Shown here one piece after another: positions 28,384 through 63,287 of a DNA stretch of 64,000 bases. The DNA is from a virus, in IMG/VR virus record IMGVR_UViG_3300045988_028354; one strand, 5' to 3'. The translations under genes were made by a program, and so were the position numbers. The notes under the pieces are model-generated. The model ran no database searches. It had not been told where the DNA came from and saw only the letters and a program-made list of their open reading frames with translations. How positions within the stretch are numbered: the stretch's first letter is position 1; each line of letters begins with the position of its first letter.

Positions 28384-28389
28384 TCAATT

Positions 28390-31067: not shown

Positions 31068-31088
31068 CTAATATAAAGGGCCATTAGG
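31068..31088. repeat. GGCC-core 20-mer, copy C
   Basis: ctaatataaagggccattagg. Confidence 0.6.
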
Positions 31089-31344: not shown

Positions 31345-31373
31345 GCCCAGTATGATTTTGTTTTATACTGGGC
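31345..31373. terminator. hairpin, strand assignment ambiguous
   Basis: Perfect 9-bp stem gcccagtat / atactgggc. Lies 37 nt after the stop of 31410..31592 on the minus strand, but the U-rich tail (tttagtatttatttt) is on the plus strand. Confidence 0.5.
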
Positions 31374-31409
31374 TTTAGTATTTATTTTGATATTTGTTTT
31401 TGTTTGGGG

Positions 31410-31592: not shown

Positions 31593-31753
31593 TTCCTTTT
31601 CTGTTTTAATTTGTTTTGGGTACGTAGGTGCTTGTTGAAGGTTGCACCTGAGTCCGTGTAGTAATTGGGGTTTGGTTTACCTGGAGTAGGAAAGTGTTCA
31701 TTCCATTTATCCTGGTGAGGTATGTATACTTGGTTCTTGGATTTCTTTTTCAT
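31589..31753 (-). CDS. possible 54-aa basic protein (not in ORF track)
   Basis: Hand-translated MKKKSKNQVYIPHQDKWNEHFPTPGKPNPNYYTDSGATFNKHLRTQNKLKQKRK. ATGA overlap with the stop of 31750..31998. Confidence 0.4.
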   Translation of the reverse strand: MKKKSKNQVYIPHQDKWNEHFPTPGKPNPNYYTDSGATFNKHLRTQNKLKQKRK

Positions 31754-31998
31754 AGGTCTAATATTGCGGTTTTGAATCCTATTGATGTTAGTTCTTGGGT
31801 TTGGATATGTACGATTTCGAAGTATTCCTTGATACCTTGTAGAGAATAGAATTGTAATACTCCTCCGTCTCCATATTCAGCATTTACCTGGTCTATGATT
31901 TCCTCATAAGCCTTGTCTTGGTTATCATTTAGTGAATGGTAGATATCTTGGACTTGGCCCTCTTCTACGATTACTAAGGTTGTGATTTTTAGTTTCAT
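31750..31998 (-). CDS. hypothetical acidic protein
   Basis: 82 aa, ATGA overlap with the upstream gene. Confidence 0.6.
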   Translation of the reverse strand: MKLKITTLVIVEEGQVQDIYHSLNDNQDKAYEEIIDQVNAEYGDGGVLQFYSLQGIKEYFEIVHIQTQELTSIGFKTAILDL

Positions 31999-32258
31999 TT
32001 TCCGTAATGTTTTAGTTCTTGGTTATACTCTGGGTATTTTTTCTCGTAGTAGTCATAGAGATATTGGTATTCGTCATCTCCTGACCAGCAATCAAGGAAG
32101 TAATCATATTGGTCCTCGGTTGCCTGTGATGGGTGTATGTGCAATGTATACTTGCAGTAGTGTTCCCATACTGTTTTAGGTTGGAATTTATTGGTAGGGA
32201 AAGCCATGACTACTAGAGCCATGGCAATTGATGTTAGGATTATAAGTTTAGTTCTCAT
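31995..32258 (-). CDS. hypothetical protein with N-terminal signal/TM segment
   Basis: 87 aa, LIILTSIAMALVVMAF near the N-terminus, ATGA overlap. Confidence 0.6.
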   Translation of the reverse strand: MRTKLIILTSIAMALVVMAFPTNKFQPKTVWEHYCKYTLHIHPSQATEDQYDYFLDCWSGDDEYQYLYDYYEKKYPEYNQELKHYGK

Positions 32259-32761
32259 TTGATAAGGGATTTGAAAAAGTTGATAGTATTTTCAGTGAAA
32301 GTGTAAAGAGTTTCTGGTTTTTCGAGAAAGTTAAGGTAATATTCGATTTCCTCGGCATGTTCTTCCTCGTTGAAATTATCCTTGTAGTATTGGAATTTTT
32401 CCATGATAAGTGGTTTGTATTTTTCCTGTTCAAGGATAAGAGTTGCACCGTAGAGTACCATGTCTACTTCGTCTACGTTATAATCGAAGTATTGGTCATC
32501 GCAGCCTCTGAGCAAATCCATTTGATTGAGGATTTCCATTAGGTCAAGTTCCAGGGATTCCTTATCGGCATAGGTATATACCCAGAGCATTTCGAGTGAA
32601 TAATCCGATATCTCCTCGTAATGTGGGTCATCCTCGGCAATTTCGAAGTCATATGTATTTTGAGCATGTGACATAGGCATTTGACCTTGGATAGAGATAA
32701 TATGATAGGGATTTTGTGCAATGATTGATGCAAGAACTGAGGTTGAATTTAATGTTGTCAT
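32255..32761 (-). CDS. strongly acidic hypothetical protein
   Basis: 168 aa, D/E/Y-rich. Confidence 0.6.
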   Translation of the reverse strand: MTTLNSTSVLASIIAQNPYHIISIQGQMPMSHAQNTYDFEIAEDDPHYEEISDYSLEMLWVYTYADKESLELDLMEILNQMDLLRGCDDQYFDYNVDEVDMVLYGATLILEQEKYKPLIMEKFQYYKDNFNEEEHAEEIEYYLNFLEKPETLYTFTENTINFFKSLIK

Positions 32762-32788
32762 GATGTTATAAGTTTTTATTGGTTAATA

Positions 32789-33034
32789 TTAATTGTTAGC
32801 GATTTGATTGTTGAATGTTGTTTGGTCATCGGCATCAGGCCAACCCATGGATTCCTCCATGTATTCGGTAGTATAATCGATAATGGTTGCAGCATCGTCT
32901 TTGTTAATTGTAGCAACCTCGGCTTCGATTTCCCGTTGGATTTGGTCGTAGTGATAAGCAAATGACCTCCGTATGCGTGCAGCAATTCCGGGGTATTTTT
33001 TAAATAATTCGATTAATTTACTTTCTTCATTCAT
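32789..33034 (-). CDS. hypothetical acidic protein
   Basis: First ATG at 33034 (MNEESKLIEL...). The track start at 33061 is TTG and lies inside the -7 box. Confidence 0.6.
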   Translation of the reverse strand: MNEESKLIELFKKYPGIAARIRRSFAYHYDQIQREIEAEVATINKDDAATIIDYTTEYMEESMGWPDADDQTTFNNQIANN

Positions 33035-33058
33035 AACGTCTATTTTTAAATGTTTATG

Positions 33059-33111
33059 CAAATATAAGAATAATATTTTAAATATGCAATAACCCCGATT
33101 ACTTACTGGAG
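33059..33111 (-). promoter_or_regulatory. Bacteroidota-type promoter with CTCCAG box
   Basis: Plus caaatata at 33059..33066, gcaat at 33086..33090, ctggag at 33106..33111; offset 47. Confidence 0.6.
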
Positions 33112-33333
33112 CCTTATAAGGTCAACTATTTCGATGGAAGAGTATGGCATACCTATAAGTTCTGAGATTATCCTTTTAGTATGATATACATGAAGGTGGT
33201 TAGGATTTAGTTTTACCCTTGGGAATATTAAGTATGGCCTTAGTTCCTCAGTTCTATAGGTTATGATTAATTCTTCGCAGAACTTTTCGTTTTGGCAATC
33301 AAAGGATACTAAAAATTTGGACTGTTCTAGCAT
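33103..33333 (-). CDS. hypothetical protein
   Basis: ATG at 33333 (MLEQSKF...). The track start at 33351 is TTG. Confidence 0.55.
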   Translation of the reverse strand: MLEQSKFLVSFDCQNEKFCEELIITYRTEELRPYLIFPRVKLNPNHLHVYHTKRIISELIGMPYSSIEIVDLIRLQ

Positions 33334-33458
33334 ACTATTAATATTAAGCAATGAGTATTCTCATAAGTTAAAGGTTCTTCGCTAGTAGGATGGGAGGATG
33401 CACCCATTATTAGGATAATTCCTCCCATGACTAAGATAAGTATAATATTAGGCTTCAT
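33327..33458 (-). CDS. possible 43-aa membrane peptide (not in ORF track)
   Basis: Hand-translated MKPNIILILVMGGIILIMGASSHPTSEEPLTYENTHCLILIVC. Overlaps both neighbours by 7-11 nt and fills the 33334..33447 gap. Confidence 0.4.
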   Translation of the reverse strand: MKPNIILILVMGGIILIMGASSHPTSEEPLTYENTHCLILIVC

Positions 33459-33765
33459 GTGATTCACGATGGGTACATAAGTCCTCAATTAAGTCTTCGA
33501 CAGTATCCTCCCAGGAATCATATCCATCAAGGTTGTATTCGGCAATGAAGGTAAAGAATGTATCTCCAAATAATAATCGTAAGACTTTGTCTGTTAGGGT
33601 TTCGTCTTCGTCATATAGTTTGTTCTCTTCCTCATTGGAAAGTTCTGTATCTCCATTTAGGATAACCGAGATTTGTTGCAGTCTGAGTAAATACCCATTA
33701 AGAGTATCAAGGTCCTCTTTAGACCTTGTCTCTTGGAATTTAAGATAAGTCTTTGATGGTGTCAT
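33448..33765 (-). CDS. acidic hypothetical protein
   Basis: 105 aa, D/E-rich. Confidence 0.6.
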   Translation of the reverse strand: MTPSKTYLKFQETRSKEDLDTLNGYLLRLQQISVILNGDTELSNEEENKLYDEDETLTDKVLRLLFGDTFFTFIAEYNLDGYDSWEDTVEDLIEDLCTHRESHEA

Positions 33766-33767
33766 AG

Positions 33768-34193
33768 TTAGTCCTCCTCTGATTTAATTTGTTGATTCAA
33801 GGGTATGTATGGTTCAGCAGGTAATTCTTCAGCAAGTACTGATATGAATCCTTCCGGGTATAAGGTATATAAGATTCGATATCCATAATCTGAATGTGGC
33901 AAGAATACATCCATAATGTTTTTGAGTAATGGGTATAGCTTCCATTGGTTATCCTCTAGGAATCGTTTCCATTCATCCATTTCGCTAGCATCATAGTTAG
34001 CAGTTAATTGAATGTGATAACGTTGTGTTTCCGTATCGATTGGGATAAATAGGTTGGTGACTACCTCAATTTCGTTTGAAGGCTTTTTGTATTGAGTAAT
34101 TGGATACCAGATACCTTCGTTTTTCCATTGATTGAGCTGGAATATTGTCATCCCAGATTCAAGTAAGTTGGTGAGTTTGTAAAGATTAACCAT
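33768..34193 (-). CDS. hypothetical protein
   Basis: 141 aa, first gene after the promoter at 34240. Confidence 0.6.
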   Translation of the reverse strand: MVNLYKLTNLLESGMTIFQLNQWKNEGIWYPITQYKKPSNEIEVVTNLFIPIDTETQRYHIQLTANYDASEMDEWKRFLEDNQWKLYPLLKNIMDVFLPHSDYGYRILYTLYPEGFISVLAEELPAEPYIPLNQQIKSEED

Positions 34194-34239
34194 GTTGTTG
34201 TCTATTTTAAAATGAATAAATATATTTTATTTCTCATTA

Positions 34240-34282
34240 CAAAGATAAGAATAATAAATAATATATGCAAATATAACTGAGG
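34240..34282 (-). promoter_or_regulatory. Bacteroidota-type promoter with CCTCAG box
   Basis: Minus strand CCTCAGTTATATTTGCATATATTATTTATTATTCTTATCTTTGTAATG; offset 37. Confidence 0.65.
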
Positions 34283-34283
34283 T

Positions 34284-34320
34284 AGAGGCAGGCTCTTAGT
34301 TAGGTTAGAGTCCTGCCTCT
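34284..34320 (-). terminator. strong hairpin at the cassette end (no U-tract)
   Basis: agaggcagg(ctc) / (gag)tcctgcctct, 9 + 3 bp with one bulge. Confidence 0.4.
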
Positions 34321-34343
34321 GGGATAGATATGAAAACAACTGG

Positions 34344-34766
34344 TTAATCGTCGTTAAGGGAACCCTCATTTAAAGTTTCATTAAGTACCTCATTAAGGAG
34401 TTCTGCACGTTGTTCTTTTGATAGGCCATCCAGTGTTCCTTTGATTCTCTCCTTTAATGCCTTTTTAAGAGTATTTTGGTACTGATTGATAAAGGTAATT
34501 GAAGAGATTGGTACTGGTATGAGTACTCTCATTTGTGTAGTATGATTACATCTGTCAAGTAATTCTGATAACTCTTTACGGTTATCCAAAGAATGTTGAA
34601 TAACCATGGCAATTACATCTGGTTGTTGAACATCGGTACATCCAGAAGCATAGCGTACGATTCTATCAAATGTTGACTCGGTAATGTCAAATGGCATTCC
34701 GTTTAAAAATGGTTCCTTGAAGTCAGGGTCCATGGTCTCTGTTTCTAAAATAGCTCTAATTGTCAT
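34344..34766 (-). CDS. hypothetical protein
   Basis: 140 aa, ATGA overlap. Confidence 0.6.
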   Translation of the reverse strand: MTIRAILETETMDPDFKEPFLNGMPFDITESTFDRIVRYASGCTDVQQPDVIAMVIQHSLDNRKELSELLDRCNHTTQMRVLIPVPISSITFINQYQNTLKKALKERIKGTLDGLSKEQRAELLNEVLNETLNEGSLNDD

Positions 34767-34945
34767 TCTTCTACTTCTCCTATGTTGTTAGCAAGTAAAT
34801 AATCGTAGTACAAGTGTACGTTAGTATCTCCATAAGTCCTAATATAGGATTCAGCATCCTCTGGGTCTGCTGAGACCCAGGGATATTCTTGTATCTGTGC
34901 CTGGTGTAATTGTAAGGCCAGAGATTTTAATTCTTCTTTGTTCAT
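34763..34945 (-). CDS. hypothetical small acidic protein
   Basis: 60 aa, ATGA overlaps on both sides. Confidence 0.55.
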   Translation of the reverse strand: MNKEELKSLALQLHQAQIQEYPWVSADPEDAESYIRTYGDTNVHLYYDYLLANNIGEVEE

Positions 34946-35322
34946 GATATTCTGAAATTAAGTTGGTAAATCCAATTGTTTTTATCCAGCTTGGTGAACG
35001 AGATAAATATAGCATCACCATCGGTAAAGCTTTGCATAAATTTAATGCAGCCATCGGCAATGAGGTTTTCTCTTTGTCTATCTACTGTAATTAGGCTTTC
35101 AAATGTGAAAGTATAATAGCAGGTTTCGTATGCCCAGATTTGATTGATATCAATGCAGGCCAATTGATAGTTATCGTATATCTTACTGAGCAGTTCAAAT
35201 AAGATATCCTTTAGGTTCTCGTTTTCCTCTTCTGTAAGAGAGAAAGTGTTTTTGTTAGCAAGGAATCTTTTAAGTACCTCGTCCAAGTTCTGGATAGAGG
35301 ATTTAGATGTTGTTGTTTTCAT
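34942..35322 (-). CDS. hypothetical protein
   Basis: 126 aa, ATG 27 nt after the -7 box. Confidence 0.6.
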   Translation of the reverse strand: MKTTTSKSSIQNLDEVLKRFLANKNTFSLTEEENENLKDILFELLSKIYDNYQLACIDINQIWAYETCYYTFTFESLITVDRQRENLIADGCIKFMQSFTDGDAIFISFTKLDKNNWIYQLNFRIS

Positions 35323-35348
35323 ATTTTTATTGTTTAATTATTACACTA

Positions 35349-35411
35349 CAAATATAAGCATTTTATTTTAAATATTACTTTATTCATGCAATTATTTTTA
35401 AATAGCTGAGG
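35349..35411 (-). promoter_or_regulatory. promoter with CCTCAG box
   Basis: Plus caaatata at 35349..35356 and ctgagg at 35406..35411; offset 57. Confidence 0.6.
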
Positions 35412-35425
35412 TTCTGCACACAAGA

Positions 35426-35450
35426 AAAGGCAGTTGGTTAGACTGCCTTT
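35426..35450 (-). terminator. intrinsic terminator
   Basis: Perfect 9-bp stem aaaggcagt / actgccttt. Minus-strand RNA is followed by UUUUCUUGUG. Confidence 0.65.
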
Positions 35451-35467
35451 GATTCATTGTTTGGTTA

Positions 35468-35899
35468 TTAATCCCGAGGATAAGGTTTCTTCTTTTTGAA
35501 AGGTTTTACTTCCCGGGTAACTTCTTGTTTATAGAAAGCATCAATGTTTGAATGAAGCATTTCTATTGTCTCCGGGGTTATTGTATCCTTTGAACTGTAT
35601 AGAGTTTCGTAGATACTTTCCCATAGTTCATTTACCAGATGCTTTCTAATGTCTTCTTTGACATCAGATTCTGGTTCAAACTTGATAGCAACTGTAACAT
35701 GGTCAATGTGATCTCCTTCTAATAGAAGACCTTTGAATCTGGATAGGTCATCAGGAGCATTTAGGTTATCGTTCAGGAACCTTTCTATGCACATATCGCC
35801 TCGCATTAATTGTGAGGCATGTTCTGCTGAGATAGGGAATTCCTCTATGCCGAACATAGAATTTTCATTGTCTTCTGAGGTAAATACGATTTTTAGCAT
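35468..35899 (-). CDS. hypothetical acidic protein
   Basis: 143 aa, TAATG junction with the upstream gene. Confidence 0.6.
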   Translation of the reverse strand: MLKIVFTSEDNENSMFGIEEFPISAEHASQLMRGDMCIERFLNDNLNAPDDLSRFKGLLLEGDHIDHVTVAIKFEPESDVKEDIRKHLVNELWESIYETLYSSKDTITPETIEMLHSNIDAFYKQEVTREVKPFKKKKPYPRD

Positions 35900-36366
35900 T
35901 ATATTTTTGTTTTTAAACGGTTAATGACTTCTTTGTAGAATTGATTTATGAACTCAGGTTCAGGAGTTGAAGAACCTGGGTTAAGTTGTCTCCAATGGAA
36001 TCTCACGCTGTTCTTTATTTCAAGGGCAAGATTATTAGCAGCTAAATCAAAGGCATCGTTGTATTGAACAATCTGTAAGAGATTGCTTACGCATTTGCTA
36101 GCATCTCCCAATGGTATGGCTTGTTCAATCATTTCGAATCCGTCTTCGTAAATCTCTACTGTATCAATGTAAATGTCATCTATATGGTTAAGAGCATTGA
36201 TTAGGTCTACCGTATTAACGGTATCATCATCGTCCAGTTCATTGGTAATTCTGAAGGCTTGGATAAAAGCATCTAGGATTCCCTGCATATCGGGGTCCTG
36301 TTCCTTAAGTGGAATACGTCTAATGATTCCAACTTGTTCGAAGGTTAAGTAATACTTGGTTTGCAT
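35899..36366 (-). CDS. hypothetical acidic protein
   Basis: 155 aa. Confidence 0.6.
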   Translation of the reverse strand: MQTKYYLTFEQVGIIRRIPLKEQDPDMQGILDAFIQAFRITNELDDDDTVNTVDLINALNHIDDIYIDTVEIYEDGFEMIEQAIPLGDASKCVSNLLQIVQYNDAFDLAANNLALEIKNSVRFHWRQLNPGSSTPEPEFINQFYKEVINRLKTKI

Positions 36367-51771: not shown

Positions 51772-52739
51772 GATTCAGCTTTTTTAAGTATGTCAATCAG
51801 TAGTTCTTTCTTATCTTGTTCAGTTATACCTTTTTCCTTAAGATACTTCCTTGCTAGAGCTTTCTTAGAAAGTTGCTTAGTAATTTTATGGTTAGTATTT
51901 ACTAAGTTACTAGTTTTCTTAGGTAAAACGGTATAATAATTGCCATCATCCCTAATATCTTCATCAGATTCTACATCTACGAATTTAGGAAATTGCTTAA
52001 GGTGTACAAATTGCATTGATAAGTCTGAATAAATCTTCCAATAACCCAATTTACAATCTCTATCTGTTCTCCTTTGATGATTAGGTGCTCCTATCATATA
52101 AACCTTCTTTGATAGTCTTTGAGGTTTATGTATATGACCACATAATACCAAGTCAAATCGATTCAAGATATTTACATTGAGATTTTCTACAGAATCAACT
52201 TCCCTACCATCGGTATCCTTTGCTCCGGGATAGTCAGTATGAAGAAGAAGTATGTTCCTTACATTCTTATCTAATTTTAGTTTCTTAAGATATTCACTTA
52301 AACCTACATTATTATCAATGTATGGAACCCCATAAATGTGGTAATCTCCATAAGAACACCATTTGATTCTAGTTAGATTAACACAGCTCATAAAATTCTT
52401 ATGAAATACAAAAGGCCATCCCTTAGTTATCCTATCAATACGATTTACAGATTTCAAATCGTGATTCCCGTCTATATAAATCATTTTGAATTTTGGATAG
52501 TTACTCTCTAACCTATCAAACTGTTCAGCAACGAATATTGCTAAATCTTGGTCAATTGATTCTGGCTTATGAAATAAATCTCCACAAAACAAAGCAGGAC
52601 ATTTGTACTTTTCACATTGACCTGCAATAACGTCAAGGACCTTGATACTATTCAAGGTCCTATTGTTGTTCTCATTGAATTTTGCCCATAAATTGATGTG
52701 CAAATCCGAGAATGCTATAAATACTACTTCTTTACTCAT
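51765..52739 (-). CDS. sbcD: SbcD/Mre11-like nuclease (T4 gp47 analogue)
   Basis: Phosphoesterase motifs FSDLH, CGDLFH, DGNHD, LLLHTD, CGHIHKPQ. ATG at 52739 (the track start at 52751 is TTG). Confidence 0.85.
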   Translation of the reverse strand: MSKEVVFIAFSDLHINLWAKFNENNNRTLNSIKVLDVIAGQCEKYKCPALFCGDLFHKPESIDQDLAIFVAEQFDRLESNYPKFKMIYIDGNHDLKSVNRIDRITKGWPFVFHKNFMSCVNLTRIKWCSYGDYHIYGVPYIDNNVGLSEYLKKLKLDKNVRNILLLHTDYPGAKDTDGREVDSVENLNVNILNRFDLVLCGHIHKPQRLSKKVYMIGAPNHQRRTDRDCKLGYWKIYSDLSMQFVHLKQFPKFVDVESDEDIRDDGNYYTVLPKKTSNLVNTNHKITKQLSKKALARKYLKEKGITEQDKKELLIDILKKAESC

Positions 52740-53430
52740 GAAGAAAATCAATAATAAGTTTCTTACGAATATCCAAATTAGCTTCTCTTATACAGAGAAC
52801 TTTAGTTTCACCATATATGGATTTGATTACTCCCTCTGTTGCACCGTATTCCAAGAGTTGATTCTTAAAAATGTTCTTATAAATAGAAGATATTTCCTTA
52901 GTAGGTAAGAATCCCCACAAGTTCAATACGTTATCCATTATAGAAGATATTAAGAACTGGAAGTAATTGTTATCTATTCGTTTACCATTATCTTCCATAA
53001 CCCATTCCTTTACCATGGCAGTAGTAAAGTCTAATAGGATAAGATGAGTACATTGTTGATTGAGTAACATCTTGCAAGTTTCGAAAAAGTGTTCCATTTC
53101 ACATTTAGGAACATTCTTGGCTTGCTTGTAATAGAAATAGGCAGCTAAATCAAGATAGCTTCTATCTGTAACAAATCTATCCCTATCTCTGAACATTTTG
53201 TTTCTTAGGTTCATTACCTGAAAATCTTCGAGTAACAAATCCTTTGAATCCCTTTCTAACATCTCTTTATGAGACATATCCTTTGTTTTAGGTATTAAGT
53301 CTGATACACTACCAGATATAAAATCCAATACTGGAGGGTATTCTGTTACATCAAACTTAATCATCCCGGGAACTTCTTTTGCTAAAGTGGTTTTCCCAAC
53401 TCCACTTGCACCTGCAAACATTATTTTCAT
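52732..53430 (-). CDS. P-loop nucleoside/nucleotide kinase-like protein
   Basis: GASGVGKTT Walker A at the extreme N-terminus, plus VTDRSYLDLAAYF resembling the DRS/ERS box of the dNK/AAA_28 kinase family. Confidence 0.45.
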   Translation of the reverse strand: MKIMFAGASGVGKTTLAKEVPGMIKFDVTEYPPVLDFISGSVSDLIPKTKDMSHKEMLERDSKDLLLEDFQVMNLRNKMFRDRDRFVTDRSYLDLAAYFYYKQAKNVPKCEMEHFFETCKMLLNQQCTHLILLDFTTAMVKEWVMEDNGKRIDNNYFQFLISSIMDNVLNLWGFLPTKEISSIYKNIFKNQLLEYGATEGVIKSIYGETKVLCIREANLDIRKKLIIDFLHE

Positions 53431-56348: not shown

Positions 56349-56741
56349 TCAATCGTTATTATTTGGTTCTGAGTAGATTACCTCATTCATACTTAACACC
56401 GTTAAAGTGTTCTTTTCCAAAAGTTGTTGTAAGCCAGGAGTAAGCTTATCTGTTTCAAATTCCATTTCCTTGCCTGCATACAAACCATAGGTAACTATTC
56501 TACCTATTTGCACCAGGTCCCGGTAAGTTCTGTATTCTTCGGTAATCTCCCCGAGTTTAACTATAACTCCCTTACGAGGAACTCCCTCTTTTACTTGTTC
56601 CGGGATAATAAGCCCAGAACGAGTTTGGTTTACTTCTTTTGGTGATAAGATAAGAACCCTGTTTTCAGTTGGACATCCTGGTAATTGTTTGTCAAACTGA
56701 TCTGCTACCATAGCAGAGATGAAAGTTAATGAATAATTCAT
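56349..56741 (-). CDS. groES: GroES-like co-chaperonin (T4 gp31 analogue)
   Basis: SGLIIPEQVKEGVPRKGVIVKLGE...GRIVTYGLYAGKEMEF parallels GroES GGIVLP..AKEKP..G.VVAVG...GD.V.F.KY.GTE. Confidence 0.65.
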   Translation of the reverse strand: MNYSLTFISAMVADQFDKQLPGCPTENRVLILSPKEVNQTRSGLIIPEQVKEGVPRKGVIVKLGEITEEYRTYRDLVQIGRIVTYGLYAGKEMEFETDKLTPGLQQLLEKNTLTVLSMNEVIYSEPNNND

Positions 56742-57709: not shown

Positions 57710-57919
57710 TTATGTTGTCATAGTATCCTCTTTCTTCACTTCTGTAGGTGATTTTGGATTTTCTTTATGATGAAGATACCTATTACAACCTGGGCACTTA
57801 ACTAATTTGCAATCAGCAAAAGTGGATGAATCTACTTCTGAGTAGTCATATTCAAATTCACAATCACAGTATGGACATTTAGCTCGCCATACCGTGGGTC
57901 CATTCAAAATCTTTTTCAT
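57710..57919 (-). CDS. zinc-ribbon protein
   Basis: 69 aa with CPYCDC...CPGCNRY. Confidence 0.6.
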   Translation of the reverse strand: MKKILNGPTVWRAKCPYCDCEFEYDYSEVDSSTFADCKLVKCPGCNRYLHHKENPKSPTEVKKEDTMTT

Positions 57920-60170
57920 AATCCTTCATTTGTTTATTAAATCTCTCTTTAAATTGCTTAATGTGGATATGTTTATATTTCTTATGTTCAGCCATATATT
58001 CCTCTACTGAGAAATCTGGTTGTAACATCTTATTATAATCATACCCAGGAATAAATGGTAATTCCTCTGCCATAGTTCTACCAATGGTAAAATCCATATC
58101 CATATCAACATCATCAACTTGAAATCCGAAATATCTCTTTGTACTTGGATTACGTAGAATATTCCAGATTGTATATACAGTCCATGTATTAATATCTTGA
58201 GGTTTAGAATACATATATACAGCATCATGTACTGTACAAGCTTCTTTCATCATGGGTAATTTACCTTGTCTCATTAACCAATAAACAAGGATAGCTCCAA
58301 AATTGGTCATATTTGCTGCAGCACCTTGACATGGGAAATTAAGACCTAAACGAATTGCATAAGCAACTTCTTGCTTATCATTTGAATATATCTGTGGGAG
58401 TCTTCGTTTAGTACCAAATAACTGTGTATAATACCCATGCTTACGAAGGAATTTCTCTTGTTTCTCTTTAAACTTCCTAATTTTAGGATGTTGACCAAAG
58501 AATACTTCCATTTCCTTTGCTGCTTCTTCTGGTGTAACTATAATACCTGCTTTTGGGTCAGATAGTTTAACTGCTAGCAATTTATTACCAATTCCATAAA
58601 TAAGTCCAAATGCAATCTGTTTAGCTTGCTTTCTCCTTACCTTCCATAGTTTATAATCTGGATGTGTTTCATCTTCATAGGCTTTACTTGCTTCTTCGAT
58701 TGATACACCATATTTTGCTGCTGCTATACCAAGGTGAGGGTCTACTCCCTTAGCAAATGCTTCCAGATATGTTTCGTCTCCTGATAGATGAGCCATCATT
58801 CTTAGCTCTGCCTGAGAATAGTCGAATGCCATATATAAATAACCGGGGGGAGCAACCAACTGTTTCTTGATATTTGGGTCTACAGAGGTTTTTGGTATTT
58901 GCTGCATATTTGGGTCAGCAGAACTGAATCGATTAGAATCAGTACCATGTATATTATATCTACCGTGTAATCGAGAATCATCTTGGACTTTTTCATGCCA
59001 ACCCTCAATATAAGTAGTATACATTTTCTGTAAACCTCTTAATTCAAGTAGCTTATCAAGGAATATTGCTTTTGGGGATTCTGGGTCTTTTACGGTTAAC
59101 CTTAATTCAACTAGTGTATCTTCATCCGTACTTGGCTTACCTGATTCATTATTTTTAATTACTGGAAATTTAAAACCAGAATCTGAATACATAAGTTGGG
59201 GTAAATCAACTGGACTACCAAGATTAAGAGGTCTTATAAGTTCTTGCTCTTTCTTTGTAGTGAATATACCTGCACGAATGTTTGATATCTTTTGTTCCCT
59301 TGAATCAATCTTACGTTTATCTTTTGGGTCATTATAATCTAACTCTTCAAGTTCAGCCTCAATAGATTCGATATACCTTTCTATTTTATCTTGATTATAT
59401 TTCTTGGTAAACTTCTTTACCCTTGGTAAATCATAGATTGCTTGTCTAGCAGCATCTATCTTTGGTTTATATTCCTCAAGCAATTTCTGATTAAATTCCG
59501 TATCAAGGTATAACCCCTCTTTCTCTACCGAAGTTAATACCCGGGAATTACACATAAATAAATTACGAAATACCGAATACATCTTCAAGTCAATTAACTT
59601 CTTCTCAAAGAATATCATTAATCGTAACGTAAAGTCTGTATCTTGACAACCATATTTGCATAATGGGTCTAATTCTTTTTTATCCCAAGGTATCTTATCA
59701 AATTTATCTTGCTTTTCATAATCACCGTATTCTGGTAAATATCTTCTAACCATATCCTTTAACCCATGAGGTTTTTCCTCATTGAGAACATATTTTGCAA
59801 GCATACCATCTAAGCATGTACCTCTATAATAGATATGATACTTTTGATTAATCTGGTCATCAAATTTCCAGTTCCATGCAACCTTTACAATATCATAATT
59901 CTCAATAATCTCTTCCCCAAATTTCCTTAACATTTTCTTCCAGTTCCATCCCGGTGAAGTATATTCTTTTGTTTGGAAATGGTCTAATGGAATAGAAGCA
60001 CCAAACCCTGGCATCCAAGATACTGATAGAATAGTTGGCTTGAAACTTTTATTATAGATTGGTTCAGCATTAGTTTCGTAGTCACAGCAAGCATAACCAG
60101 TTGCTTTACAACAAGCAATTAGTTTCTTGAGTTCTCTTTTGTTCTTAATTATCTTATATCTTGTTTCCAT
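57879..60170 (-). CDS. polA: family A DNA polymerase with 3-prime-5-prime exonuclease domain
   Basis: Exo motifs CDYETN, NWKFDDQ, YGCQDTD. Pol motif A FDYSQAELRMMAHLSGD, motif B RRKQAKQIAFGLIYG, motif C TVHDAV. ATG at 60170 (METRYKII); the track start at 60251 is TTG. Confidence 0.9.
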   Translation of the reverse strand: METRYKIIKNKRELKKLIACCKATGYACCDYETNAEPIYNKSFKPTILSVSWMPGFGASIPLDHFQTKEYTSPGWNWKKMLRKFGEEIIENYDIVKVAWNWKFDDQINQKYHIYYRGTCLDGMLAKYVLNEEKPHGLKDMVRRYLPEYGDYEKQDKFDKIPWDKKELDPLCKYGCQDTDFTLRLMIFFEKKLIDLKMYSVFRNLFMCNSRVLTSVEKEGLYLDTEFNQKLLEEYKPKIDAARQAIYDLPRVKKFTKKYNQDKIERYIESIEAELEELDYNDPKDKRKIDSREQKISNIRAGIFTTKKEQELIRPLNLGSPVDLPQLMYSDSGFKFPVIKNNESGKPSTDEDTLVELRLTVKDPESPKAIFLDKLLELRGLQKMYTTYIEGWHEKVQDDSRLHGRYNIHGTDSNRFSSADPNMQQIPKTSVDPNIKKQLVAPPGYLYMAFDYSQAELRMMAHLSGDETYLEAFAKGVDPHLGIAAAKYGVSIEEASKAYEDETHPDYKLWKVRRKQAKQIAFGLIYGIGNKLLAVKLSDPKAGIIVTPEEAAKEMEVFFGQHPKIRKFKEKQEKFLRKHGYYTQLFGTKRRLPQIYSNDKQEVAYAIRLGLNFPCQGAAANMTNFGAILVYWLMRQGKLPMMKEACTVHDAVYMYSKPQDINTWTVYTIWNILRNPSTKRYFGFQVDDVDMDMDFTIGRTMAEELPFIPGYDYNKMLQPDFSVEEYMAEHKKYKHIHIKQFKERFNKQMKDYEKDFEWTHGMAS

Positions 60171-60225
60171 ATTAATAAATAGAAAGAGGGACATACCTAC
60201 ATGTAGTAGATACATCCCTCTAATG

Positions 60226-60996
60226 TTAGAATGAGTCCTGTAAATCTTCAAGATTGGTATTCAGGTATTTCCAATCTTTTTTATAAGAATGAAGAGAATC
60301 AATTGTATGGTATAAGTAACCGGGTTTAACTCCAACCTCTTTAGCTACATATTCCATAAGTCTCCATGCAAGGTATACATCATTACCAAAATGAGTAACA
60401 AAATCTGAACTCCTTTGGTGATAACAAATATGTAATACCTTCTCTCCTTTACCATTCTGACGAATAAGGAAATCATAATACATAGAGCAGGGAATACGTT
60501 TACTTCCATCAAGGAATCTTAAGTCTGTACCATGAAATATAGGGAGTACTGCCTTACGAGTATCATTATCCCTTTTAAGGAGTTCGATAACAGATTGCAT
60601 GGCAGAATCACAATTGAATGATGTACTACCATACAGATATAATTGATTCCAAATACGTTCTGGATAAGTATAATCAAATCTACCATTCACCAAGAACTGT
60701 TCCCATAAATCTTTTCTCAGTTCCCAAGCTTTACCCGGATTTAATTCGTACCAACCAATTCTTTCCTCAAACTCAGCATCTGCCCATTCTTTTGAATGCG
60801 AGAATACAAATAACCATACCGGGTCTCCGAGTGAAGTTAAGCAATATTGTTGGCAAATGAGTTCCTTTGTCTCAAATTCCTCATTACCTTCAATTACTTT
60901 ATTCTGATAGGTCTTTGGTTTTACAGTTTGACCGTAACTGTTGAGTTCTCTGCCAAGTTCTGACATTAACTCAAAAGAATTACTGTAGATTCTCAT
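60226..60996 (-). CDS. T4 gp42-like deoxycytidylate C5-modifying enzyme (ThyA fold)
   Basis: IPCSMYYDFLIR...HQRSSDFVTHFGNDVYLAW...IDSLHSY aligns by eye with T4 gp42 FMCTNTVQYLIR...MRSNDVVFGFRNDYAW...GSLHVY. The residue 8 positions after the RS.D aspartate is Asp, as in gp42 Asp179; ThyA has Asn177 there. Confidence 0.65.
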   Translation of the reverse strand: MRIYSNSFELMSELGRELNSYGQTVKPKTYQNKVIEGNEEFETKELICQQYCLTSLGDPVWLFVFSHSKEWADAEFEERIGWYELNPGKAWELRKDLWEQFLVNGRFDYTYPERIWNQLYLYGSTSFNCDSAMQSVIELLKRDNDTRKAVLPIFHGTDLRFLDGSKRIPCSMYYDFLIRQNGKGEKVLHICYHQRSSDFVTHFGNDVYLAWRLMEYVAKEVGVKPGYLYHTIDSLHSYKKDWKYLNTNLEDLQDSF

Positions 60997-61897
60997 TCTT
61001 CTGTTTCTTTAAAAGTTTCTTCTTATATGCTTTACGTTGAGAATAGGATATCACATTTTCTGGATATTCTATATCTTCATATTCTAATAGCAAGTCCTTT
61101 GCTAACAAAGCTTGGTATTCATATAAGTCCGGACGAAGTACTTTAAAACTCCTAAAGAATACCCTAAATGAAGACCATTCCTTTTCTGTACCATTTTGGA
61201 TTTTCTTATAAACTTCTTTAACTCTTTTAGTCCAAGGATTATCTATACCCTTAATTACTTTCTTAAGAGGTTTATAAGCCGAGTACATTAAGAGTGTCTC
61301 TACATTCCCATACATTTGAGTCGCAAATAGGTTGATTTGTACTGACTGGTCCGGCCCATACACATATTCGGCCATCCGTTGAATTAATAGGAAGTCGAAT
61401 ATTAACCTCTTTGTAATCTCTGATGCTCTGATTACCATTGTAATAACTGGGATGTCCTCTTGAAATCTCTTCGAAAAAGTTGCAGCAATTAAACATTGTT
61501 TACCGTTATCATGGTGATTATTGAACATATACGTAACATTGTAATTCTGATTATATTTGTTCTTCAGGATTCTTAGTTTGCTACGTAAGAGGTCTAACTT
61601 ATTAAAATCAATATAATTATTCAATAAGCTCGTCCACTTAGTCTCTTTGTAATTAAAACACCTGCCATAATCAAAATCTGGGTCTACCCATGCTTTACGT
61701 ATTTTTATAAACACATTGTATGCTACTGCAACTCCACTGTTTGCAGTAGCACCCTTATCAAAAAGAACGGGGTCTAATCTTAAGAAAGCCTCGTTCAATT
61801 TCTCCCATGCCTCTTGTGAAGTAGCAAACTCCAAAGAGTGGAGGGTCTCCTCCGTATTCGATTGAAGACCCTCTAATTTTCTATTCCATCCACTCAT
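60980..61897 (-). CDS. divergent paralog of the gp42-like enzyme
   Basis: Ungapped match of IRASEITKRLIFDFLLIQRMAEYV to QRSSDFVTHFGNDVYLAWRLMEYV. An upstream Cys (GKQCLIAATF) is retained. The phosphate-binding Arg pair and Ser look lost. Confidence 0.5.
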   Translation of the reverse strand: MSGWNRKLEGLQSNTEETLHSLEFATSQEAWEKLNEAFLRLDPVLFDKGATANSGVAVAYNVFIKIRKAWVDPDFDYGRCFNYKETKWTSLLNNYIDFNKLDLLRSKLRILKNKYNQNYNVTYMFNNHHDNGKQCLIAATFSKRFQEDIPVITMVIRASEITKRLIFDFLLIQRMAEYVYGPDQSVQINLFATQMYGNVETLLMYSAYKPLKKVIKGIDNPWTKRVKEVYKKIQNGTEKEWSSFRVFFRSFKVLRPDLYEYQALLAKDLLLEYEDIEYPENVISYSQRKAYKKKLLKKQKNENLQ

Positions 61898-62733
61898 TAG
61901 TAATTTGTTTTTTGTCTCCAGAGGTTAAGTCTTTGTTTCTTAAAGAATAACCTGTAGATTGATTCATCTGAAAACCCTTGTAATCCCAAGAATCCCATAT
62001 ATAGGTAGAAAGCTTTTACCAAAGAATACTGAAAGTCTAATTCCTTAGTCATTACTTGGGTTTGTTTCCATGGTCTACACTTAAGAAGATTCCTTGCAAT
62101 ATTCAATTCATATACTACATTGAATAATAATACCTTCTCTTCTTCATGAGATGCTTCACTTAAAGTATTAAACCCAGGAGTATAATCTTTTACAGATTCA
62201 TGGTCTTCATCAATCATATTAAACCGATTAACTAAACCAATACTACCTTCGGTAACCATTGCTATACCCATAGTAATCACATCTTTCAATTCTTTTACTT
62301 TGAAGTCAGAGTAATCGATTACATAAGACGTTCCCCATGAGAATATGTCTTCTGGTAGTATATTTGCAAAATGGAACAAAGTGAATAGGAATCCCAGAGC
62401 ATCTCCCTGTTCTTCATTGGCATTCTGCAAATGATTGAGTACCTGAGTATATTCATCTTCGGTTAGTTGGTCAATATTCCATCCCCACTTGTGGCATATC
62501 TTTACTACCTCAGAGGTAGATTCATAACCCTCCATTAGTTCTTCGATAACCCTGGCAATAAAATCCTTAAGAACTACTTGATTTTGGTGATTATTAATAT
62601 CAACCGGATAATCGGGTAGCTTTTCTATTTGCCTGTAGCCGTCTAATTGTTCTAACGAAAGAGAATACATTGATTGTAAATACGTACCTACTTCTAAAGG
62701 AGGTACTATTTCCTTGATATTACGTATATCCAT
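61897..62733 (-). CDS. all-alpha NTP pyrophosphohydrolase (MazG / T4 gp56-like)
   Basis: ARVIEELMEGYE (E..E) and NANEEQGDALGFLFTLFHFANILPEDIF (EE..D) parallel T4 gp56 DDEFRELL and EIKFELVDIFHFVLNMFVGLGMNAEEIF as I remember them. Confidence 0.55.
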   Translation of the reverse strand: MDIRNIKEIVPPLEVGTYLQSMYSLSLEQLDGYRQIEKLPDYPVDINNHQNQVVLKDFIARVIEELMEGYESTSEVVKICHKWGWNIDQLTEDEYTQVLNHLQNANEEQGDALGFLFTLFHFANILPEDIFSWGTSYVIDYSDFKVKELKDVITMGIAMVTEGSIGLVNRFNMIDEDHESVKDYTPGFNTLSEASHEEEKVLLFNVVYELNIARNLLKCRPWKQTQVMTKELDFQYSLVKAFYLYMGFLGLQGFSDESIYRLFFKKQRLNLWRQKTNY

Positions 62734-63287
62734 TACTTACTTCCTGTTGAATTAAATCCACCTTCACCTCTTGTTCCCCACATTTGAGATTCAGAATAGA
62801 ATTCTTCTGATTGAATCTCCTCGGGTTCTGTGAGATAGATTGGTACATGAATAAATTGGGTTGCTTTCTCATCCGCCTTTAAAGTCTGTATTACTCGACT
62901 AAGATTGATTATACCAATATGAATCTCTCCTACATAGGGAGAATCTACAATCTCTGCAGTATACAGAAGACCTTTTTTAGAAGCAAGCCCAGACTTATTA
63001 GCTGCCATGAGCATAGACTCTTGAGGTTCAATAAGAGGTTTAATACCTGATGGGATAAGAATCCTTCCTCCCGGGTAAATTTGAATATCAGTTACGAAGT
63101 TGGTAGTTGTATTTACTCCCAATACAAAATCTGGAGTAAAATGATTTGGAGATTGGTTTGCCTCGATTTGAATTAATTGTTGAGGGTCTAAATTTCTTGG
63201 AATATAGAAATCCAAACCTGCATCACCTGCATTACTTCTCGATGGAGTCTTTACGTCTCTTACTTTAATAAATCTGAATCTGTTCAT
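62733..63287 (-). CDS. dut: trimeric dUTPase
   Basis: Motifs AGDAGLDF, ILIPSG, IVDSPYVGEI, TRGEGGFNSTG. Confidence 0.85.
   Translation of the reverse strand: MNRFRFIKVRDVKTPSRSNAGDAGLDFYIPRNLDPQQLIQIEANQSPNHFTPDFVLGVNTTTNFVTDIQIYPGGRILIPSGIKPLIEPQESMLMAANKSGLASKKGLLYTAEIVDSPYVGEIHIGIINLSRVIQTLKADEKATQFIHVPIYLTEPEEIQSEEFYSESQMWGTRGEGGFNSTGSK

What the first reader, a model, noticed from the sequence alone, without database searches (positions are those of the whole stretch)
60226..63287. T4-style cytosine-modification gene set in a Bacteroidota phage
Seen in sequence: four adjacent minus-strand genes.
- 62733..63287 is a dUTPase.
- 61897..62733 is a MazG/gp56-like all-alpha NTP pyrophosphatase.
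- 60226..60996 and 60980..61897 are two ThyA-fold genes.

The 60226..60996 product keeps the nucleophile Cys (RIPCS). Its box QRSSDFVTHFGND has Asp eight residues after the RS.D aspartate.

Established knowledge: that position is Asn177 in thymidylate synthase, which is uracil-specific. It is Asp179 in T4 dCMP hydroxymethylase gp42, which is cytosine-specific. T4 pairs gp42 with the gp56 dCTPase and a dNMP kinase to replace dC by hm5dC.

Inference: this phage makes a 5-substituted dCMP (hydroxymethyl, methyl or a further elaborated group). It probably replaces or heavily modifies cytosine in its DNA as an anti-restriction measure. I know of no description of this for this kind of Bacteroidota phage.
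Basis: partly seen in the sequence, partly recalled or inferred. Interest (0 to 1): 0.8.

Follow-up and report, generated by a model that had tools for sequence, protein, structure and literature searches.

The report
Cytosine-modifying nucleotide gene set, gut phage
A very common human-gut phage, probably of Bacteroides, carries a tightly packed gene set that looks built to chemically alter the cytosine building block before it enters phage DNA, but its key enzyme belongs to an unstudied branch always paired with a second, related enzyme, so the product is unknown.

Summary
Four overlapping minus-strand genes sit directly upstream of a family-A DNA polymerase. They encode a trimeric-type dUTPase, an all-alpha NTP pyrophosphohydrolase, a 305-aa protein predicted to have the thymidylate-synthase (TS) fold, and a 256-aa TS homologue.

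The TS homologue keeps the nucleophile Cys170. It has Asp206 at the position of E. coli ThyA Asn177 and T4 gp42 Asp179. Three alignment methods agree on this, and Asp is invariant in 124 of 124 distant relatives. A cytosine substrate is therefore well supported.

"T4-style" is only partly right:
- The enzyme lacks the published gp42 hydroxymethylase signature. It has an invariant Arg, not Asp/Glu, three residues before the Cys, and Tyr instead of Ser94.
- Its closest solved relative is the flavin-dependent dCMP 5-hydroxylase AfhB, but it lacks that class's D169N mark.

It forms its own clade, always next to the second TS-fold protein. The cassette recurs in Clostridium, Mycobacterium, Gordonia, Brevundimonas and Serratia phages. 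The product could be hydroxymethyl, methyl or something new.

Near-total GATC avoidance and a C5-methylase-like gene argue against fully protective cytosine replacement.

The parts
62733..63287 (-). Protein of the trimeric dUTPase family (184 aa), diverged. The dUTPase motifs can be read in the sequence, including DAGLDF, KSGLA, VDSPYVGE and RGEGGFNSTG.
   Evidence: PF00692 2e-10; phrog_135 2.9e-21; NCBIfam dut 1.5e-17, below cut-off. Specificity for dUTP was not tested.
61897..62733 (-). All-alpha NTP pyrophosphohydrolase (278 aa) of the MazG / dimeric-dUTPase superfamily. Metal-binding motifs are E64-E65-x-x-E68 (62530-62544) and E107-E108-x-x-D111 (62401-62415). Candidate dCTPase.
   Evidence: phrog_12184 3e-15; PF08761 1.5e-4. 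Motifs invariant in 25 sequences, including Clostridium phage CPD4 gp73 and the Serbin 'dUTPase'. AF2 pLDDT 88, all helical. BFVD phage dUTPase 8e-14, TM 0.8. Only weak C-terminal similarity to T4 gp56. dCTP as substrate is inference.
60980..61897 (-). Second, very divergent TS-fold protein ('P2', 305 aa). Cys135 (61493-61495), Arg157 (61427-61429), Ser159, Glu160 (61418-61420) and Asp168 (61394-61396) lie in the register of the TS catalytic Cys, Arg166, Ser167, Asp169 and Asn177.
   Evidence: AF2 model pLDDT 65. Foldseek top hits are nearly all TS family: MilA 1.5e-4, T4 dCH, AfhB. Cys135 and Arg157 are invariant in homologues from six phage lineages. Homologues always lie immediately upstream of the TS-like gene. 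Sequence-level homology is not significant.
60226..60996 (-). TS homologue (256 aa) with a cytosine-type active site and no TS C-terminal tail. Key residues: Cys170 (60487-60489), Asp206 (60379-60381, = Ec Asn177), Asp198 (= Ec Asp169), Arg167 (60496-60498, = Ec Leu143 / T4 Asp145), His202 (= Ec Gly173), Ser171 (= Ec His147), Tyr109-x-Tyr111, Trp98, Glu75, Arg147, Arg195, Ser196.
   Evidence: PF00303 1.3e-13. PDB best hits AfhB 9iqu/9iqc (1.3e-9 with the single sequence, 6.4e-21 with the profile), then MilA and TSs. Residue table over 124 representatives plus reference enzymes. Far below NCBIfam TS equivalog cut-offs.
57879..60251 (-). Family-A DNA polymerase with a 3'-5' exonuclease domain, immediately downstream. 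It would have to accept the modified dNTP.
   Evidence: PF00476 1.3e-65; PF01612 2.6e-14. PolA follows the TS-like gene in all six lineages examined.
52732..53430 (-). P-loop kinase-like protein (232 aa). Candidate dNMP kinase for the modified monophosphate.
   Evidence: phrog_2107 'thymidylate kinase' 6e-8; PF13521 AAA_28 2e-6. Only the P-loop aligns with the kinases adjacent to the cassette in other phages. Weak assignment.

Best explanation
This is a pre-replicative pathway that modifies C5 of a deoxycytidine nucleotide. Proposed steps:
1. The all-alpha pyrophosphohydrolase, with the trimeric dUTPase alongside it, hydrolyses dCTP (and dUTP) to the monophosphate. This removes the canonical triphosphate and supplies dCMP.
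2. The TS-like enzyme attacks C6 of dCMP with Cys170. Asp206 reads and protonates the cytosine N3/N4 face, and the activated C5 receives a substituent.
3. The adjacent second TS-fold protein works with it, either as a partner subunit or in a second step.
4. A P-loop kinase and then host NDP kinase raise the product to the triphosphate.
5. The phage's PolA incorporates it.

What is shown: the genes, their order, the fold and family assignments, and the conservation of the active-site residues. What is inferred: every substrate, the product and its incorporation into DNA.

The substituent is most likely a one-carbon unit from methylene-tetrahydrofolate. The folate-contacting residues Asp198 (Ec Asp169), Trp98 (Ec Trp80) and Glu75 (Ec Glu58) are kept. 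Hydroxymethyl is somewhat more likely than methyl, because the enzyme has no C-terminal sealing tail and no DHFR was found. The signature matches none of the three characterised product classes, so the product is open.
For: - Asp at the Asn177 position with no gap to the RSxD motif, in three alignment methods, and 124/124 in distant relatives. N177D and D179N swaps are known to exchange dUMP and dCMP specificity (cited in PMC13326640, PMC8670742, PMC6400193).
- Asp177-type TS homologues are statistically associated with cytosine-modified viral DNA in metaviromes (PMC8670742).
- Phosphate- and deoxyribose-binding residues are kept: Arg147, Arg195, Ser196, His236, Tyr238.
- The gene order kinase, NTP-PPase, P2, TS-like, PolA is conserved in phages of Firmicutes, Actinobacteria, Alpha- and Gammaproteobacteria and this gut phage.
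- The pyrophosphohydrolase keeps its catalytic EExxE/EExxD motifs. It coexists with a separate trimeric dUTPase, so it is unlikely to be only a dUTPase.
- The TS-like protein scores far below the curated thymidylate-synthase equivalog thresholds.
Against: - No chemistry was measured.
- The gp42 hydroxymethylase signature is not met: Arg167 in place of Asp/Glu, Tyr109 in place of Ser (PMC6400193).
- His202 replaces Ec Gly173, which the NAR paper (PMC13326640) lists among the twelve residues within 6 A of C5 of dUMP, so the pocket near C5 may be altered.
- GATC is almost absent (7 sites against 223 +/- 16 expected). This suggests the DNA is still exposed to at least one C-containing restriction specificity.
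- A C5 cytosine DNA-methylase-like gene at 23412-24416 would have no substrate if every C carried a C5 substituent.
- No glycosyltransferase or other post-replicative modification gene was recognised among ORFs of at least 150 aa.
- The kinase assignment is weak.
Confidence: 0.62

Rival explanations
1. The enzyme is an Xp12-type dCMP methyltransferase. The phage makes 5-methyl-dCMP, which replaces dC in its DNA and/or is deaminated to feed dTTP synthesis.
For: - Asp177-type TS homologues from metaviromes frequently make 5mdCMP: 5 of 7 tested, plus Xp12 (bioRxiv 10.1101/2024.12.05.627091).
- Members of the same clade in Serratia phage Serbin and Gordonia phage GTE2 are followed by a cytidine deaminase, as in Xp12 and PaMx74.
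- Asp169, Trp80, Glu58 and Tyr94 equivalents are kept.
- 5mC leaves many restriction sites cleavable, which would fit the GATC avoidance.
Against: - The enzyme ends about 20 residues after the SLHxY motif. It lacks the roughly 50-residue C-terminal region that Xp12, PaMx74 and ThyA share and that seals the site for hydride transfer (PMC6400193).
- No DHFR or deaminase was found in the window or in the 10 kb beyond it.
- The family HMM scores Xp12 and PaMx74 no better than ThyA (65 and 60 against 63 bits).
- The position three residues before the Cys is Arg, not the Asn of Xp12 and PaMx74.
Confidence: 0.15
2. The enzyme is an AfhB/RB69 gp48-type flavin-dependent dCMP 5-hydroxylase. It makes 5-hydroxy-dCMP as a handle for later glycosylation.
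For: - AfhB (9iqu/9iqc) is the best solved-structure match both for the single sequence (1.3e-9) and for the family profile (6.4e-21, against about 2e-16 for the next-best hits, a TS and MilA).
- It is the highest-scoring characterised enzyme against the family HMM (78 bits).
- Both have similar length and lack the C-terminal tail.
Against: - The diagnostic D169N substitution, found in all experimentally confirmed 5hodCMP synthases (PMC13326640), is absent. Asp198 is kept in 122/124 relatives.
- No DNA glycosyltransferase or NDP-sugar genes were detected.
- Trp80, which aligns to a gap in AfhB, is kept.
- The host habitat is the anaerobic gut, while the reaction needs O2.
Confidence: 0.07
3. 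The module alters nucleotide pools without wholesale change of the virion DNA. It might sabotage host dCTP, act in salvage, or cause partial or transient modification. Packaged DNA would be essentially canonical and protected by site avoidance and methylation.
For: - Extreme GATC avoidance.
- CpG and GCG/CGC depletion.
- A C5-methylase-like gene.
- No recognisable hypermodification genes.
- These genomes assemble routinely from ordinary shotgun metagenomes.
Against: - A conserved cassette placed directly before the replicative polymerase, together with a kinase, in six phage lineages is the arrangement seen in phages that incorporate modified bases.
- Ease of assembly does not exclude 5mC or 5hmC.
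- The C5-methylase-like protein has an atypical motif IV (SPDCG) and may not be a conventional DNA methylase.
Confidence: 0.13
4. It is an ordinary thymidylate synthase (dUMP to dTMP) fed by the dUTPase, as database annotations state.
For: The PF00303 hit, and 'thymidylate synthase' labels on homologues in GenBank and JGI. A dUTPase that would supply dUMP lies upstream.
Against: - Invariant Asp instead of Asn177.
- Ser instead of His147, Arg instead of Leu143, His instead of Gly173.
- No C-terminal tail.
- 19-50 bits against curated TS equivalog cut-offs of 108-427 bits.
Confidence: 0.03

Closest known systems
T4 gp42 dCMP hydroxymethylase with gp56 dCTPase/dUTPase and gp1 dNMP kinase
   Same: TS-fold enzyme of similar size (246 against 256 aa) with catalytic Cys, the RSxD motif and Asp at the specificity position. 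No C-terminal tail. Accompanied by an all-alpha NTP pyrophosphohydrolase, a kinase and the phage's own polymerase.
   Different: - Only 24% identity over 113 residues.
- The water-activating Asp145 is an invariant Arg, and Ser94 is Tyr.
- No glucosyltransferase.
- The polymerase is family A, not B.
- There is an additional TS-fold paralogue and an additional trimeric dUTPase.
- The gp56 relationship of the pyrophosphohydrolase is only marginal.
AfhB / RB69 gp48 / DLP3 gp80 5-hydroxy-dCMP synthases (flavin-dependent TS homologues; PDB 9iqu, 9iqc)
   Same: Closest solved relative by sequence and by profile. Asp at position 177, a polar residue at position 143, short C-terminus, and Ser/Thr after the catalytic Cys.
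   Different: Asp169 is retained rather than changed to Asn. Position 143 is Arg rather than Glu, and position 173 is His rather than Val. Trp80 is retained. No arabinose or glycosyl-transfer genes.
Xp12 / PaMx74 5-methyl-dCMP synthases
   Same: Asp at position 177, Asp169 and Ser at position 168. They belong to a nucleotide-metabolism block, and in some clade members (Serbin, GTE2) the cassette also has an adjacent deaminase.
   Different: Xp12-type enzymes are 289-298 aa with a TS-like C-terminal tail, Asn at position 143, Pro at 147 and Gly at 173. They sit next to DHFR and a deaminase, and have no P2 partner.
MilA CMP 5-hydroxymethylase (mildiomycin pathway)
   Same: Second-best solved relative of the TS-like protein and best Foldseek match of P2. 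Cytosine-specific, with Asp at position 177.
   Different: MilA acts on the ribonucleotide in a bacterial antibiotic pathway, has Asp at position 143, and is 320-340 aa long.
Uncharacterised 'thymidylate synthase' plus upstream hypothetical protein in Clostridium phage CPD4, Mycobacterium phage JacoRen57, Gordonia phage GTE2, Brevundimonas phage Polewnik and Serratia phage Serbin
   Same: Same clade: 123-291 bits to the family HMM, with R-x-P-C-[ST] and RSxD-x3-H-x3-D motifs. Same neighbours in the same order: kinase, all-alpha NTP-PPase, P2 homologue, TS-like, PolA.
   Different: Hosts from other phyla. Some add a cytidine deaminase. They lack the extra trimeric dUTPase, and their kinase is adjacent rather than 7 kb away. 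I found no functional data for any of them.

Membership tests
Thymidylate synthase superfamily (PF00303 fold) | Significant profile match covering the catalytic core, with Cys146, Arg166, Ser167, Tyr94 and Glu58 equivalents | tested here: met
   PF00303 51 bits against a cut-off of 24.3. Cys170, Arg195, Ser196, Tyr111 and Glu75 are conserved.
Bona fide thymidylate synthase (dUMP to dTMP) | Asn at Ec position 177, His147, hydrophobic Leu143, a C-terminal tail, and a score above the curated equivalog thresholds | tested here: not met
   Asp206, Ser171, Arg167, and no tail. NCBIfam scores are 19-50 bits against cut-offs of 108-427 bits.
Cytosine-specific TS homologues (gp42, MilA, Xp12, AfhB classes together) | Asp at the position of Ec Asn177 / T4 Asp179 | tested here: met
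   Gap-free alignment. Asp in 124/124 relatives.
gp42-type dCMP hydroxymethylase | Asp or Glu three residues before the catalytic Cys (T4 Asp145), which activates the substrate water | tested here: not met
   Arg167, invariant in 124/124. D145N abolishes T4 dCH activity (PMC6400193).
gp42-type dCMP hydroxymethylase | Ser/Thr-x-Tyr motif (T4 Ser94-x-Tyr96) | tested here: not met
   Tyr109-Thr-Tyr111. Tyr109 and Tyr111 are invariant in alignment A2.
gp42-type dCMP hydroxymethylase | 5-hydroxymethyl-dCMP formed from dCMP and CH2-THF | not testable with these tools
   Needs an enzyme assay or nucleoside LC-MS.
5-hydroxy-dCMP synthase (AfhB / RB69 gp48) | Asn at Ec position 169 (D169N), diagnostic in all confirmed members | tested here: not met
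   Asp198 in the window protein, and Asp in 122/124 relatives. Criterion from PMC13326640.
5-hydroxy-dCMP synthase (AfhB / RB69 gp48) | Bound flavin and O2-dependent hydroxylation | not testable with these tools
   Biochemical property.
Xp12-type 5-methyl-dCMP synthase | TS-like C-terminal extension ending in a tail that closes the active site; DHFR and deaminase in the neighbourhood | tested here: not met
   The protein ends at residue 256, 18 residues after Tyr238. Xp12 and PaMx74 are 289 and 298 aa. No DHFR or deaminase was detected.
All-alpha NTP pyrophosphohydrolase superfamily (MazG / dimeric dUTPase / T4 gp56) | Helical bundle with EExxE and ExxD metal-binding motifs | tested here: met
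   E64-E65-x-x-E68 and E107-E108-x-x-D111 are invariant. All-helical model with pLDDT 88. phrog_12184 3e-15. BFVD phage dUTPase 8e-14.
T4 gp56 dCTPase specifically | Significant full-length similarity to gp56, and dCTP/dCDP hydrolysis | tested here: inconclusive
   Only the C-terminal 43 residues align: hhalign probability 32%, E 4.9e-4; BLASTP E 0.068. Activity is not testable here.
TS fold, for the 305-aa protein P2 | Structural match to TS-family structures, with the catalytic Cys and the Arg-Ser phosphate motif in register | tested here: inconclusive
   Foldseek top hits are TS family (probability about 1.0, E 1.5e-4), but TM is 0.36-0.53 on a pLDDT-65 model. Cys135 and Arg157 are invariant in six lineages. 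Profile-profile probability is below 5%.

The most novel reading that the evidence does not exclude
The Arg143/His173/Asp177 TS-like enzyme and its obligatory TS-fold neighbour P2 form a two-component system that makes a C5-modified deoxycytidylate not yet described.

One possibility is a heterodimer with one composite active site. Another is two steps: the second Cys-dependent enzyme re-activates a 5-hydroxymethyl intermediate and exchanges the hydroxyl for another group.

This chemistry would then be shared by phages of at least five bacterial phyla, including one of the most prevalent phage families of the human gut.
Probability: 0.25. Interest if true: 0.85.

Novelty: new variant of a known kind. 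Interest (0 to 1): 0.66.

Why it matters
Phage base modifications decide which restriction, CRISPR and glycosylase defences work against a phage. They also bias sequencing-based virome surveys and have repeatedly supplied enzymes for epigenetic sequencing.

This gene set sits in an 85-88 kb phage type that assembles as near-complete contigs in very many human-gut metagenomes. It fits the description of the candidate family 'Flandersviridae', although I did not compare it with a reference genome of that family. The original description of that family lists no nucleotide-modification genes.

The key enzyme is clearly cytosine-directed but fits none of the three experimentally defined product classes (5-methyl, 5-hydroxymethyl, 5-hydroxy). 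It always travels with a second TS-fold protein that current profile libraries do not recognise. Cultured relatives carry the same cassette: Clostridium perfringens, Mycobacterium smegmatis, Gordonia, Serratia and Brevundimonas phages. The question can therefore be tested at once by LC-MS of virion DNA.

Tried and rejected
- Megablast of the region against GenBank phages found nothing. Only protein-level relatives exist.
- The PDB entry codes 9IQU, 9IQC and 9IR2 were not found in the paper library. The identity of that structure came from the Foldseek descriptions and from tblastn to Mosigvirus genomes.
- A sequence-profile search of P2 against the PDB returned nothing. hhalign of P2 against the TS-like family stayed below 5% probability even with a six-lineage profile.
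- Two IMG/VR scans seeded with P2 returned almost only near-identical gut-phage loci, so they added no diversity. Diversity came from GenBank phages instead.
- Foldseek of the pyrophosphohydrolase model against the PDB gave only non-specific helical bundles. BFVD was informative.
- The window's P-loop protein shares only its P-loop with the kinases adjacent to the cassette elsewhere.
- Pfam and PHROG scans of the other ORFs of at least 150 aa found no glycosyltransferase, TET-like dioxygenase, DHFR, deaminase or carbamoyltransferase. Smaller ORFs were not scanned.
- I rejected an ordinary thymidylate synthase, a dUMP hydroxymethylase (Asp, not Asn, at position 177) and chance ORFs (hundreds to thousands of homologues for each of the three proteins searched).
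- Ten literature searches found no functional study of this clade and no report of DNA modification in 'Flandersviridae'.

Full report
**What is there**

The window is most of an 85-88 kb tailed phage.
- It carries a large terminase, portal, protease, major capsid protein and giant tail-fibre proteins.
- Two tail proteins contain BACON domains.
- The block of interest lies in a replication module.

Near-identical contigs of 85-88 kb are very numerous in human-gut assemblies and in IMG/VR. In those contigs the module reads:
- DnaB helicase
- SNF2 helicase
- small genes
- dUTPase
- a 278-aa protein
- a 305-aa protein
- the TS-like protein
- PolA
- Cpn10
- a gp32-like SSB
- a RecA/UvsX-like recombinase
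- a 5'-3' exonuclease
- a P-loop protein
- SbcD and SbcC

I did not compare the window directly with a reference genome of that family. That paper does not mention dUTPase or thymidylate-synthase genes.

**Check of the observation**

The dUTPase assignment is sound at the family level.

The 278-aa protein is an all-alpha NTP pyrophosphohydrolase:
- It has PHROG and marginal Pfam matches.
- It has invariant EExxE and EExxD motifs, even against homologues from Clostridium and Serratia phages.
- Its AF2 model is confident and all helical.
- Its strong BFVD match is annotated as a phage dUTPase.
- Its tie to T4 gp56 is limited to the C-terminal helix and the terminal K-x3-N-x2-RQ-x2-Y motif.

The 256-aa protein is a TS homologue. 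The quoted strings are present. Cys170 and Asp206 align gap-free with Cys146 and Asn177 of E. coli ThyA, and with Cys148 and Asp179 of T4 gp42. BLASTP, MAFFT and HMMER all give this alignment.

The exhaustive representative search found 1,916 relatives. Among the 124 full-length relatives in the top 150, the following are conserved:

| Residue | Conservation |
|---|---|
| Cys170 | 124/124 |
| Arg195 | 124/124 |
| Ser196 | 124/124 |
| Asp206 | 124/124 |
| Asp198 | 122/124 |

The 305-aa protein (P2) has no sequence-level match to anything annotated.
- Its AF2 model is moderate, with pLDDT 65.
- The model retrieves almost exclusively TS-family structures: MilA, T4 dCH, AfhB and many TSs.
- Its strand and helix order reproduces the TS core.
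- Cys135, Arg157-x-Ser159-Glu160 and Asp168 fall in the register of Cys146, Arg166-Ser167-x-Asp169 and Asn177.
- Cys135 and Arg157 are invariant in homologues from six phage lineages.

I regard 'second TS-fold gene' as probable.

**Which kind of TS homologue**

The literature gives four diagnostics, in E. coli numbering:

| Feature | Meaning | Source |
|---|---|---|
| Asp at 177 | Cytosine substrate | PMC8670742, PMC13326640 |
| Asp/Glu at 143 (T4 Asp145) plus Ser94-x-Tyr96 | Hydroxymethylation; D145N is inactive | PMC6400193, |
| Asn at 169 | Flavin-dependent 5-hydroxy-dCMP synthases, in all confirmed cases | PMC13326640, |
| Long C-terminal tail, with DHFR and deaminase neighbours | Methyl-forming enzymes, as seen in Xp12 and PaMx74 | |

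I fetched T4 gp42, Xp12, PaMx74 and an AfhB-identical Mosigvirus protein and aligned them with the family. The window enzyme and its relatives show this signature:

| E. coli position | Window residue | Conservation or note |
|---|---|---|
| 177 | Asp206 | 124/124 |
| 169 | Asp198 | 122/124 |
| 143 | Arg167 | 124/124 |
| 173 | His202 | 108/124 |
| 147 | Ser171 | Ser or Thr in the family |
| T4 Ser94 position | Tyr109 | Tyr, not Ser |
| 80, 58, 94 | Trp98, Glu75, Tyr111 | retained |
| C-terminal tail | absent | protein ends at residue 256 |

This signature matches none of the three characterised product classes.

By overall similarity the family is its own clade. Against the family HMM, members from other phages score 123-291 bits. 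The characterised enzymes score as follows:

| Enzyme | Bits |
|---|---|
| AfhB | 78 |
| Xp12 | 65 |
| E. coli ThyA | 63 |
| T4 gp42 | 61 |
| PaMx74 | 60 |

The best solved relative is AfhB, 'phage HY126 dCMP hydroxylase'. This was a surprise, because the PDB sequence file labels it only as thymidylate synthase.

**A conserved cassette**

GenBank phages with family members show the same local order: P-loop kinase, all-alpha NTP-PPase, a hypothetical protein of about 250-300 aa, the TS-like protein, sometimes a cytidine deaminase, then PolA. This holds in five phages:
- Clostridium phage CPD4
- Mycobacterium phage JacoRen57
- Gordonia phage GTE2
- Brevundimonas phage Polewnik
- Serratia phage Serbin

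Pairwise BLAST links the components:
- The window's pyrophosphohydrolase matches CPD4 gp73 (about 1e-16), Serbin 'dUTPase' and GTE2 'dCTP pyrophosphatase'.
- The window's P2 matches CPD4 gp74 (about 1e-11).
- CPD4 gp74 in turn matches the Serbin and Polewnik hypothetical proteins.

All of these TS-like proteins carry R-x-P-C-[ST] and RSxD-x3-H-x3-D. Neighbourhoods of TS homologues without Arg at position 143 (T4, Xp12, PaMx74, Mosigvirus) have no annotated P2-like gene beside them. I did not run a P2 search on those loci.

The pairing of the two TS-fold proteins is therefore a clade-wide feature, not an accident of this genome.

**Mechanism**

The best-supported reading is a pre-replicative cytosine C5 modification pathway analogous in logic to T4:
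1. The triphosphate is hydrolysed to dCMP.
2. C5 is modified by Cys-dependent TS-fold chemistry.
3. The product is re-phosphorylated.
4. The phage's own polymerase incorporates it.

The retained Asp169, Trp80 and Glu58 equivalents favour a folate-derived one-carbon unit. The missing tail and the absence of a detected DHFR favour a hydroxymethyl over a methyl product. The Arg143, His173 and Tyr-x-Tyr signature leaves room for different chemistry, and the role of P2 is unknown.

Most P2 lineages lack the Arg-Arg pair that a TS subunit donates to its partner's phosphate site. This is read from the sequences. It is compatible with a heterodimer, but that is speculation.

**Evidence that tempers the anti-restriction story**

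- GATC occurs 7 times, against 223 +/- 16 expected from dinucleotide-preserving shuffles. The observed/expected ratio is 0.03 under a Markov model.
- CpG has an odds ratio of 0.52, and CGC/GCG is at 0.16 of the base-composition expectation.
- Such strong avoidance of a C-containing site suggests the DNA remains cleavable there.
- The phage also encodes a C5 cytosine DNA-methylase-like protein at 23412-24416 (PF00145 8.2e-11; TIGR00675). Its motif IV is atypical, SPDCG. A conventional enzyme of this type needs an unsubstituted C5.
- No glycosyltransferase or similar gene was recognised among the larger ORFs.

Together these lower my confidence that all cytosines carry a bulky protective group. 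They are compatible with a small substituent, with partial replacement, or with a pool-directed role.

**Novelty**

Asp177-type TS homologues in phages and metaviromes are well known.
- They are associated with modified DNA (PMC8670742).
- Tested members give 5mdCMP, 5hmdCMP or 5hodCMP (PMC13326640; bioRxiv 10.1101/2024.12.05.627091).

The general idea is therefore not new. Three things do appear to be undescribed in the library I could search:
- this clade's active-site signature;
- its obligatory second TS-fold partner;
- its presence in a highly prevalent gut phage group.

I rate it a new variant of a known kind. There is about a one-in-four chance that the chemistry itself is new.

Noticed in passing
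whole window; GATC at 9280, 12829, 20841, 35710, 40989, 42217, 56699: GATC is almost eliminated: 7 sites against 223 +/- 16 expected from dinucleotide-preserving shuffles, observed/expected 0.03. CpG has an odds ratio of 0.52. CGC/GCG is at 0.16 of the base-composition expectation. GCGC and CGCG occur 3 times each in 64 kb. This looks like strong restriction-site avoidance.
   Followed up: partly
window 23412-24416 (-): A 334-aa C5 cytosine DNA-methylase-like protein (PF00145 8.2e-11; TIGR00675 3.4e-7) lies close to the terminase genes, one ORF away from the large terminase. It has an ENL motif VI but an atypical motif IV (SPDCG) and no clear FxGxG motif. Its presence sits awkwardly with complete C5 substitution of cytosine.
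   Followed up: partly
L005 (Clostridium phage CPD4), L167 (Mycobacterium phage JacoRen57), L168 (Brevundimonas phage Polewnik), L169 (Gordonia phage GTE2), L170 (Serratia phage Serbin): The cassette kinase, all-alpha NTP-PPase, P2-like hypothetical, Arg143/Asp177 TS-like, optional cytidine deaminase, PolA is conserved in cultured phages of four other bacterial phyla. The P2-like genes are annotated only as hypothetical proteins.
   Followed up: yes
window 60226-60996 compared with L002 10902-11666: The TS-like protein is only 87% identical to that of contigs whose neighbouring P2 is 99% identical. The differences cluster in a replaced patch at residues about 104-135, including indels. This suggests local mosaicism in a surface region of the enzyme.
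   Followed up: no
window 56349-56741 (-): A GroES-like co-chaperonin (PF00166 Cpn10, 3.4e-10) is encoded inside the replication module, between PolA and the gp32-like SSB.
   Followed up: no
window 3832-7872 (-), 696-1589 (-), 15011-15901 (-), 7874-14092 (-): Giant tail or fibre proteins carry BACON domains (3.5e-19 in the 1346-aa protein), PKD domains, and an endosialidase-chaperone (Peptidase_S74) C-terminus in the 2072-aa protein. This is consistent with a Bacteroidota host and glycan binding.
   Followed up: partly
window 26000-36000: GC skew switches sign (positive between about 26 and 36 kb) and GC content falls to 0.30 at 28-30 kb. The region holds small ORFs with no family matches. 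It may be a divergent early or moron region, or a transcription switch.
   Followed up: no
PDB entries 9iqu, 9iqc, 9ir2: The sequence-level PDB table names these chains only 'Thymidylate synthase'. The entry titles show they are the flavin-dependent dCMP 5-hydroxylase AfhB of phage HY126. The chains share an identical 111-residue stretch with the 'putative dCMP hydroxymethylase' annotated in many Mosigvirus genomes, so those GenBank labels are probably wrong.
   Followed up: yes
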